From the NCBI GenBank assembly GCA_951406725.2, contig OX597835.1:18972001-19036000 (forward strand): a DNA stretch of 64,000 nucleotides, written 5' to 3'. The notes beneath the pieces were generated by a model. That model had not been told where the DNA came from. It saw only the letters and a program-made list of their open reading frames with translations, and did not search any database. This document shows, in pieces, positions 16,333-62,332 of this stretch (position 1 is its first letter; each line of letters begins with the position of its first letter). This DNA is from Octopus vulgaris. Lineage: Eukaryota. Position numbers and translations under genes: made by a program.

Positions 16333-16719
16333 GGAGTCGCAATGGCTTCCCCCCAGTGGTTAGAGCAGCGGACTCGCGGTCATAGGATCACGGTTTCGAT
16401 TTCCAGACCGGGCGTTGTGAGTGTTTATTGAGCGAAAACACCTTAAAGCCCCACGAGGCTCCGGCAGGGGATAGTGGTGATCCCTGCTGTACTCTTTCAC
16501 CACAACTTTCTCTCACTCTTACTTCCTGTTTCTGTTGTACCTGTATTTCAAGGGGCCGGCATTGTCACTCTCTGTGTCACGCTGAATATCCCCGAGAACT
16601 ACGTTAAGGGTGTACGTGTCTGTGGAGTGCTCAGCCACTTACTCGTTAATTTCACGAGCAGGCTGTTCCGTTGATTCGAATCAACCGGAACCCTCATCGT
16701 CGTAACCAACGGAGTGCTT

Positions 16720-16722
<3 letters not shown>
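16333..16722 (+). mobile_element. SINE family A, full length
   Basis: Head to tail matches the other family A copies; lies in a TA tract. Confidence 0.93.
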
Positions 16723-16801
<79 letters not shown>

Positions 16802-17520
16802 ATATATTTATGTGTGTGAATATACCAGACATAAGTTTGTTAAACTACAAAATACAAAATATAAATTTCTACACTACCACACTTGAAACGCACCTGTGAT
16901 AGCAATTCATCTCGATTTGAATGTGTGTGAAGGTATTTAGAATGTCCAAACTTATTTCTGTAAATGTGCTATGCACTGATGCTGACCACAGTTTAATCAA
17001 GAAGCGTAGAAGCGAGGTAAATGCAGTAACAACAGCGGGGTCAGAGATACCTTTTAGCGGCCCTTTAGAAATTGATCCTCCTTACGATACCCACCAGGAG
17101 TTCATGGTATGAAATTAATTATTGTTCTGATTTGGTCATCAATAGCATTTATTTAGATGAAAATACAGTAAAAGTAGTGGAGGTGTCAGTGGAGCCCCAG
17201 TTGGGCGGCCCTTAAAAGAATAGACACACTTTTGACATTCCTTGATATTAGGGGTCTTGCTGGTTTGCGTTTCGTTGTCCTTGCGCCAACGATATATGAG
17301 AAGTTAACGAACACAAAAGCGTAATGGACGGAGAAAATATGACTCTAATTTATAATAGTATGTGTGTGTGTGCATGTGTCTGTTTATCTGCGTGTGTCTG
17401 TGTGTGTTTCTGTATGTGTGTGACATGTAACGTGTCTGGAATAGTATCACAATGCAGAGTGGACTGTAATAACTGTTAGAAATAATTTAAATTTTCATAG
17501 TCTAATATTTCAGAATATAA

Positions 17521-17900
17521 GGAAGCACTCCGTCGGTTACGACGACGAGGGTTCCGGTTGATCCGATCAACGGAACAGCCTGCTCGTGAAATTAACGTGT
17601 AAGTGGTTGAGCACTCCACAGACACGTGTACCCTTAACGTAGTTCTCGGGGATATTCAGCGTGACACAGAATGTGACAAGGCCGGCCCTTTGAAATACAG
17701 GTACAACAGAAACAGGAAGTAAGAGTGAGAGAAAGTTGTGGTGAAAGAGTACAGCAGGGATCACTACCATCCCTGCCGGAGAATGTGGAGCTTTAGGTGT
17801 TTTCACTCAATAAACACTCACAACGCCCGGTCTGGGAATCGAAACCGCGATCCTACGACCGCGTGTCCACTGCCCTAACCACTGGGCCATTGCGCCTCCA
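17521..17900 (-). mobile_element. SINE family A, full length
   Basis: Reverse complement of 16333-16722 / 36002-36390. Confidence 0.93.
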
Positions 17901-32420: not shown

Positions 32421-32687
32421 ACATGTACCACACTAACATATACAAGCACACACATGTTTACATACTCGTCAAAAATACGAACACAAAAATTATATTGCAA
32501 TGAAATATAAATGGATGAAAAATGTTATACGGGAAAAAACACAGCAAATAATATTCTCGAATATAAGTATAGACAACAAATTAGATTATGTGGACAATGA
32601 CAAGATAGCTGATATACAAATTGGACACATACACCCAGGCAGATGAACCTAAACACATTTTGTACACGTGTATAAGATACATGAATG

Positions 32688-32727
32688 CAACAACAGCAGC
32701 AACGACAACAACAACAACAACAACAAC

Positions 32728-32782
<55 letters not shown>

Positions 32783-32843
32783 TTAATAATAATAATGATA
32801 ATAATAATAATAAGTACTATTATTATTATTATTATTGTTATTA

Positions 32844-32940
<97 letters not shown>

Positions 32941-32963
32941 CATTATTATCATCATCATCATCA

Positions 32964-33033
<70 letters not shown>

Positions 33034-33056
33034 CATTATTATCATCATCATCATCA

Positions 33057-33096
<40 letters not shown>

Positions 33097-33122
33097 CATT
33101 ATTATTATTATTATTATTATTA

Positions 33123-33214
<92 letters not shown>

Positions 33215-33496
33215 GGGAAGGAGATGATGACCATAATAATATCAATAATATTAATAATAACAATAATCATAGCAACAATAACAATAATAATAATTATTAT
33301 AATAAATAAAATAATAATAATGATGATGATGATAAATATAATAGTTAAAATATTAATAGAAGTAATACTGAAAATTATGATAAGAATAATATCAAAAATA
33401 ATCATAAAACTAATGATGATGATGATGTGATTATGATGATGTCGACGTCGACGACGACGATGACGATGACGATGACGATGGTGATGATGATGATAT

Positions 33497-33535
<39 letters not shown>

Positions 33536-33583
33536 GTATGATGATGATGTTGATGATGATGATGATGATGACGATGAAGATGG

Positions 33584-33619
<36 letters not shown>

Positions 33620-33620
33620 C

Positions 33621-33651
<31 letters not shown>

Positions 33652-33710
33652 TTGATGATGACGATGATGATGATGATGATGACGATGACGATGATGACGA
33701 TGATGATGAC
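32688..33710. repeat. 1-kb compound trinucleotide block (CAA)n(AAT)n|(ATT/CAT)n|(AAT)n(GAT)n
   Basis: Direct reading; source of the poly-I/N/Y/L/M/S ORFs. Confidence 0.95.
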
Positions 33711-34789
33711 GAGAGGAAGGACAACAACGTCAACAGTAATAAACCCCTCAGGTTTAGCTTTTTTTTCATATGTGTGTGTGTGTGTCGAAAAGTGCTACGA
33801 GAACAATTTGGCATGCAGACAAATTGAAAACAGATCGAAACATTTTTATTAGGCGAGGGATATAGAGAAGAAACAAAAAAAAAAGCAAGGACATAATATA
33901 ATCTAATGTAAATCAATAAGAAAAATAAACATCGAGACGATAATATTCCACTGTTATTATATTCCCATATTTTGTTTGTCTGTTTCTCCTCAATTTATAT
34001 ATCAGGTTGTAATTTAATTTTGATCTTATCGACACACGGAAAGTATAAAAAAATGTTGTATCTGGGAAAGTGAAGAAAAAAAAAATCATTATGCAATTAT
34101 TTAAGTTTAAATATTTTCATGTCACATTTATCGAAAACAGAAATGTGTAAATTTTTGACACTGAATTTGTTGCTCCTACGAGCACTTCAAAATAGATTTA
34201 CTCTATGTATATATATATATTATATATTTCTTTCGCACGCAGTTCGATGGAGACATTCTGGCAGCAATGTGCAACAAGAATCAAACTTCCAAAACCAGAA
34301 TAGCAAACAAAGATATCATCACTACCAAGTCCCTTTATGTTCTTTTAATTGTTTCTGTCATTCAATTGTGGCCATTCGAGGGCACCGATTAGGAAGGACT
34401 TCTGCAATGGAAGGCGTCCGGTGACCGCATATCAGCCAAATCTCGTTGTGCTTTTAGGCATCATGTTTTTACATGGGGGTTCCGCTGAAGGTACAATTGT
34501 AGTAATCGGCATCCTAGCAAGATATCCATGTTCAGGTAGATTTATAGAGTTATCGTTTTCGTACTAATACTGATTCTTTCGCTAATAATTTTGTATCCAT
34601 GCATGCAACTACCCATCCATCCATCCATCCATCCTTGCCTCTCTACCTACCTACCTACCTACCTACCTAACTACACACACACACACACAGAGTCAAGTGC
34701 ATGCAGTCACACGCACACACACGTATATGTGTATGTCTGTGTGTATATAGATAGATAGACAAACAGACAGACAGTCAAACAGATAGTTA

Positions 34790-47199: not shown

Positions 47200-47207
<8 letters not shown>
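46894..47207 (+). mobile_element. SINE with family A head and an unrelated 3' tail
   Basis: Family A head to ~47085, then CTGCTCGCTTAGCCAGCGGGGTGGC...(TCACGTGA)2. Confidence 0.88.
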
Positions 47208-47243
<36 letters not shown>

Positions 47244-47306
47244 GAAAACAGTTGGAGTCAACAAGAAGTTGCGTATTGGACATTTATTTCCAGCAGACAA
47301 CCATAC

Positions 47307-47345
47307 TTAGGATGTCTTTCGATTAATTTTAATTCTTCAGCTATT
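47307..47345 (-). ncRNA. degenerate minimal hammerhead-like motif
   Basis: Minus strand TAG-CTGAAGA-ATTAAaaTTAATC-GAAA-GAC-ATC-CTA; weak stem III. Confidence 0.4.
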
Positions 47346-47452
47346 TTGGGGGGCTTGCAATCGCCTATATTATTAATTCTGTTATTATCTATGTGTTTCC
47401 ATGCATATATATATATATATATAACTTCTTGTTGACTCCAACTGTTTTCAAT

Positions 47453-47509
<57 letters not shown>

Positions 47510-56216: not shown

Positions 56217-56495
56217 TATATTATATTAAATTATAGATAAAACCACTATTAGGCAAATCATGCAATGAAAAACTTAAGCCAATACATAAGATTAATTAAT
56301 TTATATTATTTAAATATATATCAAAATTATTAAAAAAGGTAATTAATATAACACTACGATCGTTAATTAATTATATTAATTATCTTTTTTAATAATTTTC
56401 ATATATATTTAAATAATATAAATTAATTAATCTTATGTATTGGCTTAAGTTTTTCATTGTATGATTTGCCTAATAGTGGTTTTATCTCTAATTTA

Positions 56496-56505
<10 letters not shown>
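56217..56505. repeat. AT-rich palindrome with ~135-bp arms
   Basis: 56217-56351 vs 56371-56505; loop contains ACTACGATCGTT. Confidence 0.9.
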
Positions 56506-60687: not shown

Positions 60688-60692
<5 letters not shown>

Positions 60693-60870
60693 CGGAGTAA
60701 ACACATAAATGTGAAACAAGGTGGAAAAAAGAGTACTCAAATACCAGTGGCAGAGTAATATGCTTTATTTAAAGCAACAGAAAATTCAACAAAACTGTCC
60801 GATGAACGGCAGCGGGAAACTCAGAGTAACAGGTTTTGTTGAATTTTCTGCTGCTTTAAATAAAGTATAT
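60688..60870 (+). mobile_element. short fold-back element whose loop is a hammerhead-like core
   Basis: Arms 60758-60798 / 60829-60870; loop CCGATGA-A-cggcagcgg-GAAA-CTCaGAG-TA; TA tracts on both sides. Confidence 0.7.
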
Positions 60871-61114
60871 ATATATATGTATATATAATTAATCAATATA
60901 GGTGGCAAAAAAAATTTGTAGAATTCTTTTGCCACCAGCGGCCTAGTAGGAAAAAATTAAAATAGTCATAGACCATTTTTAAGTTCAACATCAACAATAA
61001 AGGAACGGCCATAATAGGCCATTCACCCACTAGAAATAACAGCCAAAGCTTCAACCGCAAATAAAAGTTAATTCAGTAAACCAGGAGAAAATTTAAAAAA
61101 CATTTACTCTGTAA

Positions 61115-61219
61115 TTTCTTATACGATATACCGTTTCATCTGCTGATTAATGGTAAACTAACCTGATTAAATTAAATCAAGCCAATCTTCCACAGGCCCT
61201 CAGATTCTTCAGTAAGAAA
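61115..61219 (-). ncRNA. type I hammerhead ribozyme, canonical core
   Basis: Reverse complement of 61845-61949. Confidence 0.85.
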
Positions 61220-61844
61220 TAGCCCAAGACGGAACAGATATTTTCACGAGGCATTTCCGACGTTGCCAAGTTAATATCTGACCTAAATTTTTCAAATCGT
61301 CGCACTCGCGCCAAATTTATCGGCAGCAAATAAATATAAGCCGTCGATTCCATTACGGAATTAACCAGAAAATTCATAATTAATCAATATAGGGTGGCAA
61401 AAAAAATTTTGTAGAATTCTTTTGCCACCAGCGGCCTAGTAGGAAAAAATTAAAATAGTCATAGACCATTTTTAAGTTCAACATCAACAATAAAGGAACG
61501 GCCATAATAGGCCATTCACCCACTAGAAATAACAGCCAAGGCTTCAACCGCAAATAAAAGTTAATTCAGTAAACCAGGAGAAAATTTAAAAAACATTTAC
61601 CCTGTAATTTCTTATACGATATACCGTTTCATACTGGTGGCAAAAGAATCTACAAAATTTTTTTTGCCACCCTATATTGATTAATTATGAATTTTCTGGT
61701 TAATTCCGTAATGGAATCGACGGCTTATATTTATTTGCTGCCGATAAATTTGGCGCGAGTGCGACGATTTGAAAATTTTAGGTCAGATATTAACTTGGCA
61801 ACGTCGGAAATGCCTCGTGAAAATATCTGTTCCGTCTTGGGCTA

Positions 61845-61949
61845 TTTCTTACTGAAGAATCTGAGGGCCTGTGGAAGATTGGCTTGATTTAATTTAATCA
61901 GGTTAGTTTACCATTAATCAGCAGATGAAACGGTATATCGTATAAGAAA
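61845..61949 (+). ncRNA. type I hammerhead ribozyme, canonical core
   Basis: Stem I TTTCTTA/TAAGAAA (7/7), CTGAAGA 61852-61858, stem II ATCTG/CAGAT with structured insert, GAAA 61927-61930, stem III CGG-tata-TCG, GTA site (cleavage after 61942). Confidence 0.85.
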
Positions 61950-62116
61950 TTACAGAGTAAATGTTTTTAAATTTTCTCCTGGTTTACTGAATTAACTTTT
62001 ATTTGCGGTTGAAGCTTTGGCTGTTATTTCTAGTGGGTGAATGGCCTATTATGGCCGTTCCTTTATTGTTGATATATGTATATATATATATTTATGTCCG
62101 TATGTATATATATGTA

Positions 62117-62332
62117 TAAAGTTAATCCAAACCTGAAAACACAAAGAGAAAACACAACAACGCGAGGACGTGGAACAAATATAGTATTATTGGACGCTCG
62201 GGAAGGAAGGGAAGAAGGAAGGTTTAACGTTTCGAGCGGTGCTCTTCGTCAGAAACATAGGAAAAGGAAAGATCCAGAGAAAGGAAGACGGAGGGAAAAA
62301 TCGACAACGGTACACATGCGGTCACATTTTGA
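62117..62332 (-). mobile_element. HHR-bearing short element related to family H1
   Basis: Shares ACGCTC.GGAA...ACGTTTCGAGC..GCTCTTC..CAGAAA layout with H1; TA-rich flanks. Confidence 0.7.
62222..62256 (-). ncRNA. minimal hammerhead motif with canonical CUGACGA core
   Basis: GTTT-CTGACGA-A-GAGCaccGCTC-GAAA-C-GTT-AAAC; palindromic AACGTT stem III. Confidence 0.7.

What the first reader, a model, noticed from the sequence alone, without database searches (positions are those of the whole stretch)
60885..62073. Young ~492-nt unit with a canonical hammerhead ribozyme, arranged tandem plus inverted
Seen: all HHR core bases (CUGAAGA, GAAA, GUA) and stems I-III are intact; one copy lies on each strand; equivalent cleavage positions in the tandem units are 493 nt apart; ~440-bp inverted arms (60990-61431 / 61634-62073) are almost identical; no RT ORF; TA flanks. 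Established: Penelope-like elements carry type I HHRs in tandem or inverted terminal repeats, and non-LTR retrozymes are non-coding HHR repeats that give circular RNA. Inference: a recently mobilised self-cleaving non-autonomous retroelement. A read-through transcript in either direction would contain an intact HHR, although the long fold-back could compete with ribozyme folding.
Basis: partly seen in the sequence, partly recalled or inferred. Interest (0 to 1): 0.85.

Follow-up and report, generated by a model that had tools for sequence, protein, structure and literature searches.

The report
Two-armed hammerhead retrozyme insertion
This is one young copy of an abundant 493-base protein-free repeat with a predicted self-cutting RNA fold, pasted back-to-back into a TA microsatellite in the layout known from Penelope-type jumping genes, whose enzyme likely copied it; the class is already known from other animals.

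Summary
Observation confirmed. Two complete type I hammerheads (61844-61950 +, 61220-61114 -; 68-nt stem II domain) and a third half-site lie in a head-to-head insertion. Arms of 1.52 and 0.89 units of a 493-nt non-coding unit diverge from a junction at 61633. There is a likely 10-13 bp target duplication and a 105-nt tail on one end. Public contigs show a very abundant family whose unit closes on itself, with other head-to-head junctions, so it is probably neither an assembly fold-back nor merely the end of a coding element. One probable-RNA run holds a single 523-nt (493+30) cyclic contig. Another holds ribozyme-strand copies with an ADAR-type A-to-G cluster across the uncut site. Best reading: an animal non-LTR retrozyme, likely inserted by a Penelope-type RT priming from both target strands. 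This copy probably cannot release a circle efficiently: neither arm has two complete ribozymes, and read-through traps them in a fold-back. Retrozymes, their proposed PLE dependence and this layout are all published. The scan has noted what looks like the same ~490-nt family at several other loci. New member of a known kind. Cleavage, circularity, the partner RT and this exact junction remain untested.

The parts
60875..60884 (.). Left copy of candidate target-site duplication (10 bp, up to 13 with priming overlap) in a G-interrupted TA microsatellite
   Evidence: only one informative base, empty site not seen
60885..61632 (-). Left arm: 748 nt, 1.52 units of the 493-nt repeat, ribozyme strand reading leftwards, long 3' end at 60885
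60885..60989 (-). 105-nt tail: 3' extension present on the left end only
   Evidence: arms end at unit positions 256 and 150
60901..60936 (-). 13-bp hairpin about 16 nt upstream of the long 3' end
61114..61220 (-). Complete type I hammerhead, predicted cut after 61122
61607..61632 (-). 3' half of a third hammerhead (GAAA, stem III, GUA, stem I 3' strand), site after 61615; 5' half missing
61633..61633 (.). Head-to-head junction: one untemplated base beside a 3-nt (5 of 6) microhomology
   Evidence: read by eye
61634..62073 (+). Right arm: 440 nt, 0.89 unit, ribozyme strand reading rightwards, short 3' end at 62073
61844..61950 (+). Complete type I hammerhead, predicted cut after 61942; 68-nt stem II domain 61859-61926
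62025..62073 (+). Hairpin whose 3' base coincides with the short 3' end
62074..62083 (.). Right copy of candidate target-site duplication

Best explanation
This is a head-to-head insertion of an abundant 493-nt non-coding repeat with a predicted type I hammerhead (an animal non-LTR retrozyme), likely written into a TA microsatellite in one event by a Penelope-like (PLE) reverse transcriptase/endonuclease supplied in trans. SHOWN: the anatomy, the family's abundance, ring closure of the unit in public contigs, and other head-to-head junctions. INFERRED mechanism: (1) arrays elsewhere are transcribed on the ribozyme strand, cut and possibly ligated into 493-nt circles. (2) A PLE protein nicks both strands of a TA tract about 10-13 bp apart. 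(3) Each freed 3' end primes cDNA at one of two internal start points about 105 nt apart, both beside hairpins. (4) The cDNAs run through three cut sites, so the template was an uncut multimer or a ligated circle, not a cleaved linear monomer. (5) The two cDNA ends join at a short microhomology. The resulting copy is probably a dead end: each arm has only one complete ribozyme, and read-through RNA would fold back into a 440-bp duplex of the kind ADAR hyper-edits.
For: Ribozyme significant against shuffles. Structure-preserving variation in relatives (tables 3 and 7, read by eye): stem II G-C to G-U at 61142; loop III UAUA to UGCA, still palindromic; cut triplet GUA to GUC in run X13; sister families change the second stem III pair from G-C to G-U or A-U and the third from G-U to A-U. 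Stem III pairs far better as a dimer (-15.6 kcal/mol) than as a hairpin (-1.2). The circular unit folds at z -5.3, 68% paired, 35.5% GC, with only two 61-68 aa stop-to-stop frames and no Pfam hit at cut-off. Abundance: 8,712-33,193 contigs per DNA-guessed or unlabelled run on the 1.6-kb locus, neighbouring repeats included; 4,760 X1 contigs on the unit alone. The unit-to-unit position 61376 is bridged, e.g. by X3 record 10 at depth 1,080. The share of X1 contigs running on into unlike sequence is 0. 13 of the 15 joints shown (172 found) join the antisense arm to the sense arm at varied points, and none of the 15 is tail-to-tail. X4 (RNA guessed) has one laid contig, 523 nt = 493+30, going once round the unit. 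X2 (RNA guessed, organism B) covers the ring and has a (TA)n join at the same short end as 62073. It also has two contigs in which 11 of 13 adenosines over 61093-61122 read as G, with no other change except the known family allele at 61108. All 11 have a 5' A or U; the two unchanged ones have a 5' C or G. Layout matches PLE insertions (PMC3846280, PMC8557442). A PLE protein cuts and extends both target strands and starts at two internal sites (PMC11167929).
Against: No autonomous partner was found or linked (no genome held). The junction at 61633 itself was not seen in any listed contig. The long end (unit position 256) does not appear among the 12 loose ends shown of 88. The three passes over unit positions 1-150 differ at two sites, which one unmutated circle would not give. 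The tail is 105 nt, against 30-40 nt for PLEs. The TSD rests on one informative base. The RNA status of X4 and X2 is a guess, a cyclic contig also arises from a tandem array, and hyper-edited copies may be genomic. X4 differs from this locus at 4 substitutions and 2 indels, so this copy is not shown to be expressed. In a frog survey only 1 of 9 predicted retrozyme dimers self-cleaved in vitro (bioRxiv 10.64898/2026.07.22.740005).
Confidence: 0.72

Rival explanations
1. The unit is the pseudo-LTR of an autonomous Penelope-like family, and this locus is a doubly 5'-truncated, inverted insertion of it.
For: Two direct plus one adjacent inverted pLTR, a one-sided tail and a 9-10 bp TSD are the typical Penelope structure (PMC3846280; PMC8557442 Fig. 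2 legend). Sister-family contigs in X2 share the long stem II and then diverge (records 20-21).
Against: Upstream of the full unit lies more unit, not an ORF end. The ring is bridged in DNA contigs and closes in X4 and X2. No deep loose end leads into foreign sequence among those shown. The ribozyme has a stem III, whereas metazoan PLE ribozymes are mostly minimal (PMC4209133). 76 loose ends were not shown.
Confidence: 0.13
2. Same retrozyme, but the template was a linear uncut multimer from a genomic array, or two separate RNAs, rather than a circle; circles play no part in its spread. This is a sub-rival within the best explanation.
For: The upstream pass differs from the other two at 61601 and 61540. 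61540 G is the rare allele: 91% of X1 depth and all X13, X4 and X2 depth carry A. For PAc, uncut RNA was the dominant substrate in vitro (PMC11167929). Edited X2 molecules span the cut site uncut.
Against: Two or three substitutions could have arisen after insertion, with conversion between the inverted arms. X4 holds one homogeneous unbranched ring.
Confidence: 0.4
3. Assembly fold-back or chimera.
For: Four single-base deletions in homopolymers look like long-read consensus errors. The exact junction was not verified in reads.
Against: The junction is asymmetric (a 202-nt spacer, arms in different register), the flanks are different repeats, there is a candidate TSD, and similar junctions at other positions exist in short-read contigs of organisms C and A.
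Confidence: 0.04
4. Satellite DNA spread by DNA-level recombination, with the inversion made by DNA repair and the ribozyme a relic.
For: Unequal crossover is the accepted route for array growth (bioRxiv 10.64898/2026.07.22.740005, discussion).
Against: Both outer ends are ribozyme-strand 3' ends in TA, the same short end recurs in organism B, the joints shown are head-to-head only, the ribozyme varies in a structure-preserving way, and ADAR-type changes mark an RNA stage.
Confidence: 0.06

Closest known systems
Animal non-LTR retrozymes (coral, Mytilus 350-390 bp, axolotl; PMC7229834, read: passages and parts 2-4 of 6; vertebrate survey bioRxiv 10.64898/2026.07.22.740005, read: parts 1-3 of 5)
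   Same: Non-coding low-GC tandem unit with one canonical type I hammerhead, palindromic loop III, highly paired predicted circle; PLE mobilisation already proposed.
   Different: 493 nt exceeds the 170-400 nt invertebrate range given (the survey reports 51-972 bp). 68-nt stem II domain. Head-to-head two-armed insertion with a one-sided tail; 'inverted' has 0 occurrences in the main text of PMC7229834. This locus lacks two complete tandem ribozymes.
EN+ Penelope-like element insertions (Pen2a_Av, PMC3846280, passages; Naiad/Penelope layouts, PMC8557442, passages)
   Same: Partial tandem plus an adjacent inverted 5'-truncated copy, head-to-head, overlapping arms, one-sided tail, 8-10 bp TSD, TA targets.
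   Different: No ORF; tail 105 nt rather than 30-40; ribozyme has a stem III; the unit closes on itself.
PAc Poseidon element biochemistry (PMC11167929, read: parts 1-2 of 4)
   Same: Cuts and extends both strands of AT-rich DNA, two internal start sites that define the tail, cleavage not required for insertion.
   Different: Autonomous element whose start sites lie in an AC-rich loop inside the ORF; trans-mobilisation of a non-coding ring is not covered in the parts read.
L1 twin priming (recalled; PMC2837659 seen as search listing only)
   Same: Two cDNAs primed from both target strands and joined at a microhomology, giving an inverted 5' part.
   Different: No poly(A); both ends appear to be fixed internal positions; the arms overlap by hundreds of bases of a repeating unit.

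Membership tests
Animal non-LTR retrozyme | Canonical type I hammerhead in the unit | tested here: met
   variation
Animal non-LTR retrozyme | Head-to-tail tandem unit of a few hundred bp at family level | tested here: met
   493-nt period; ring bridged in DNA contigs and closed in X4 and X2
Animal non-LTR retrozyme | 'Active' copy: two consecutive units with complete hammerheads (bioRxiv definition) | tested here: not met
   each arm has one complete ribozyme; the upstream site at 61615 lacks its 5' half. Bears on this copy's activity, not on the family
Animal non-LTR retrozyme | Non-coding, GC below 50% | tested here: met
   35.5% GC, longest frames 61 and 68 aa, no Pfam hit at cut-off
Animal non-LTR retrozyme | Highly self-paired monomer circle | tested here: met
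   -132 kcal/mol against a shuffle mean of -106 (60 shuffles), z -5.3; antisense -93; prediction only
Animal non-LTR retrozyme | Expressed as circular and linear monomers | tested here: inconclusive
   one 523-nt cyclic contig at depth 8 in a run guessed to be RNA; contigs cannot separate a circle from a multimer
Animal non-LTR retrozyme | Self-cleavage in vitro | not testable with these tools
   ribozyme fold lies 2.5-3.2 kcal/mol above the ensemble in short contexts and 5.2 in the circle
Animal non-LTR retrozyme | TSD longer than 4 bp when present | tested here: inconclusive
   10-13 bp candidate in a microsatellite
Animal non-LTR retrozyme | No PBS/PPT; loop 1-loop 2 tertiary contact | not tested
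   no call addressed these
Autonomous EN+ Penelope-like element | RT plus GIY-YIG ORF | tested here: not met
   none in the insertion or, by eye, in the window; no exit from the unit into long foreign sequence among the loose ends shown
Autonomous EN+ Penelope-like element | Partial tandem with adjacent inverted 5'-truncated copy | tested here: met
   13 of 15 joints shown
Autonomous EN+ Penelope-like element | 30-40 bp tail on one end | tested here: inconclusive
   one-sided extension present but 105 nt long
Autonomous EN+ Penelope-like element | Minimal hammerhead lacking helix III (typical of metazoan PLEs) | tested here: not met
   3-bp stem III plus closing pair
Autonomous EN+ Penelope-like element | AT-rich or (TA)n target | tested here: met
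   TA join at the short end in X2

The most novel reading that the evidence does not exclude
A dimeric Penelope RT engages one 493-nt ribozyme circle at two fixed hairpin-marked start points 105 nt apart and rolls round it from both nicked target strands at once. The head-to-head product is self-silencing: its transcripts fold back and are ADAR hyper-edited across the ribozyme core and cut site. This would be a genomic record of rolling-circle retrotransposition of an animal circular RNA, with a built-in brake.
Probability: 0.28. Interest if true: 0.66.

Novelty: new member of a known kind. Interest (0 to 1): 0.36.

Why it matters
That PLE enzymes mobilise animal retrozymes has been proposed (PMC7229834; bioRxiv 10.64898/2026.07.22.740005) from co-occurrence and pLTR similarity. 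A family whose insertions carry the PLE footprint (inversion, tail, TA target) and cross the cut site several times makes the template question, circle or uncut multimer, testable. This locus is one example among many and adds little alone.

Tried and rejected
No whole genome was held, so there is no copy count, partner search or empty-site test. Rfam missed the ribozyme. Exact-motif scans found nothing in viral contigs or metagenome contigs. The scan look-up by sequence and the one near this place returned nothing. The two short frames gave only weak Pfam matches below cut-off and were rejected as genes. There is no other copy of the unit elsewhere in the window. All were contigs, so RNA ends, strand and level could not be read, and table 6 was empty in both calls. 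Summed depths are not used as copy numbers. T>C differences in X2 at 61154 and 61159 were set aside because diverged sister-family contigs appear to carry them too. Literature searches: hammerhead+Penelope (45 papers, 30 listed); octopus+Penelope (42, 20 listed); retrozyme (55, 40 listed, no cephalopod title); retrozyme with cephalopod terms (15 of 4,965 listed, none containing 'retrozyme'; a weak search); PLE+twin priming; hammerhead+A-to-I+retrotranspos+circular RNA (2 general reviews). The 2026 O. vulgaris repeat annotation has 0 occurrences of ribozyme, hammerhead or retrozyme in its main text. I read no supplements; those of PMC7229834 and the bioRxiv survey, and repeat libraries such as Repbase or Dfam, may already hold this family.

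Full report
OBSERVATION. The window is a microsatellite-rich animal sequence. I took it for a cephalopod from its repeat landscape (recalled), and earlier scan notes call the genome octopus; I did not test this, and no genome was held. A hammerhead descriptor finds two strict hits in 64 kb: + 61844-61950 and - 61220-61114, with stem I 8 bp, CUGAAGA, stem II 5 bp closing a 68-nt domain, GAAA, stem III 3 bp plus the closing pair, loop UAUA and GUA. It finds none in 100 shuffled windows. The fragment 61835-61960 folds accordingly, z -3.05. Rfam misses it, probably because of the long stem II (inference).

ANATOMY. Numbering the 493-nt unit from 61632 leftwards, the left arm (61632-60885, minus strand) runs from position 1 through one full unit to position 256. 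The right arm (61634-62073, plus strand) runs from 202 to 150 of the next unit. The arms diverge: their 5' ends meet at 61633, one untemplated base beside a 3-nt microhomology (read by eye), and both 3' ends abut TA repeats. The left end extends 105 nt beyond the right end. The short end sits at the base of a hairpin and the long end about 16 nt past a 13-bp hairpin. The flanks share 10 bp, or 13 bp with overlap, across a G interruption, a candidate TSD with only one informative base. The arms cross three cut sites (61615, 61122, 61942), but only two have a complete ribozyme. The unit is 35.5% GC, non-coding and folds as a circle at z -5.3.

AGE. The three passes differ by three substitutions and four homopolymer deletions, the latter possibly consensus errors. 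At 0.0036 per site per million years (derived from PMC13282606, passage; valid only if this is an octopus), three substitutions over about 700 compared bases give about 0.6 My, and two over the 150 bases covered three times give up to 1.9 My. Both are rough, and conversion between arms would lower them. The family spans a range: of 4,760 X1 contigs laid on the unit, 1,851 are 99% alike or more, 1,799 are 95-99%, 1,020 are 90-95% and 90 are lower.

FAMILY. 20 of 24 listed runs, from 13 studies, hold the stretch or part of it. In four large runs (three guessed DNA, one unlabelled) all 30 bins are covered, and the unit-to-unit position 61376 is bridged (X3 record 10, depth 1,080). On the monomer reference no X1 share runs on into unlike sequence, and the six X1 loose ends shown are five that resemble unit variants and one sister ribozyme; 76 loose ends were not shown. 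Of 15 joints shown out of 172, 13 join the antisense arm to the sense arm at different points, that is, head-to-head inversions at other loci. Twelve are in X5 and one in X8, each from one contig with 20-46 letters on the short side. The junction of this locus was not among the pieces shown.

RIBOZYME CONSERVATION. Read by eye: 61142 turns a stem II G-C into G-U. 61128 and 61129 change together, UAUA to UGCA, keeping the loop palindromic. X13 has GUC at the cut site. Sister families in X1 and X2 carry G-U or A-U at the second stem III pair and A-U at the third. Stem III pairs at -15.6 kcal/mol as a dimer against -1.2 as a hairpin, so dimeric cleavage as described for metazoan ribozymes (PMC4209133, part 1 of 4) is plausible. 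Forming the ribozyme costs 2.5-3.2 kcal/mol in short or co-transcriptional contexts, 5.2 in the circle, 7.2 in the whole right arm and 148 in either full read-through.

RNA HINTS. X4 (RNA guessed, organism A) has one laid contig of 523 nt, unit length plus 30, going once round the unit without flank, at depth 8. It has four substitutions and two indels against this locus, none in the ribozyme core. That is what a closed ring gives in an assembly graph with 31-letter words (inference), but a tandem array gives it too. X2 (RNA guessed, organism B) covers the ring and joins (TA)n at the same short end. It also holds two contigs whose loose end matches 61093-61122 with 11 of 13 ribozyme-strand adenosines read as G and no other change except the family allele at 61108. 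The chance of such a pattern is about 1e-11. All 11 changed sites have a 5' A or U, and the two unchanged ones have a 5' C or G, in line with ADAR's depletion of upstream G and its preference for long inverted-repeat duplexes (PMC5625713, passages). The changes include the cut-site base and stem I, and the molecules span the site uncut. No matched DNA exists, and earlier scan notes report edited copies fixed in this genome, so these contigs could be genomic. Either way the ribozyme strand most likely existed as double-stranded RNA. None of this shows expression of this locus.

MECHANISM. Shown: layout, abundance, ring closure and recurrent inversions. Inferred: a PLE protein in trans nicks both strands of a TA tract and primes two cDNAs at two internal start points, as PAc does in vitro (PMC11167929, parts 1-2 of 4). 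The template is an uncut multimer or a circle, and the ends join by microhomology. Against one pristine circle: the upstream pass differs from the other two at 61601 and 61540. 61540 G is rare in the family. 61601 C appears to be the majority allele (inferred from depth partition and joint placement), which makes the allele shared by the two inverted arms the derived one. I put circle against multimer or two RNAs at roughly even odds. This copy is probably inert as a source of circles, unless the downstream ribozyme also cuts the upstream half-site (speculation).

COMPARISON. It meets the testable features of animal non-LTR retrozymes (PMC7229834, passages and parts 2-4 of 6; PMC7761336, passages), except that this copy fails the two-complete-ribozyme criterion of the 2026 survey (bioRxiv 10.64898/2026.07.22.740005, parts 1-3 of 5). 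That survey already argues that animal retrozymes are non-autonomous PLE derivatives, and saw cleavage in only 1 of 9 dimers tested. It works like a PLE insertion (PMC3846280 and PMC8557442, passages) but fails PLE membership: no ORF, a longer tail, and a ribozyme with stem III. I found no cephalopod retrozyme paper, but I read no supplements or repeat libraries. The scan's own notes describe 490-495-nt families with a long stem II and two-armed insertions at other loci. My first reading favoured a pLTR (65%); those notes, followed, moved me to a retrozyme.

VERDICT. Real, a new member of a known kind, one of many copies. Interest 0.36.

Noticed in passing
window 62222-62256 (-), within repeat 62100-62330: A minimal-type hammerhead motif (CUGACGA, one extra A, 4-bp stem II, palindromic near-absent stem III) in a separate very abundant repeat directly right of the insertion.
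   Followed up: partly
window 60688-60866: Another abundant repeat directly left: a short fold-back with one end about 77 nt longer than the other and a degenerate hammerhead-like core (CCGAUGA ... GAAA) in its spacer. It looks like a miniature two-armed insertion of a different family (by eye). Three ribozyme-like families thus sit within 1.7 kb of TA tracts.
   Followed up: partly
run X2 records 20-21 and X1 loose end at 61147: Sister families share the long stem II at about 87% identity but have a different stem III and flanks; they could lead to the autonomous partner.
   Followed up: no
window 56217-56505: AT-rich palindrome, arms 135 nt, 97% complementary, 19-nt spacer, next to TA repeats; MITE-like or fold-back.
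   Followed up: no
window 47206-47487: Short inverted repeat with about 33 non-microsatellite bases per arm between TA tracts.
   Followed up: no
window 16333-16727 / 17515-17899: 395-nt inverted pair, 91% alike, starting with a tRNA-like sequence; probably two SINE copies.
   Followed up: no
window 32581-33850: Long run of mixed trinucleotide repeats giving spurious long ORFs.
   Followed up: no
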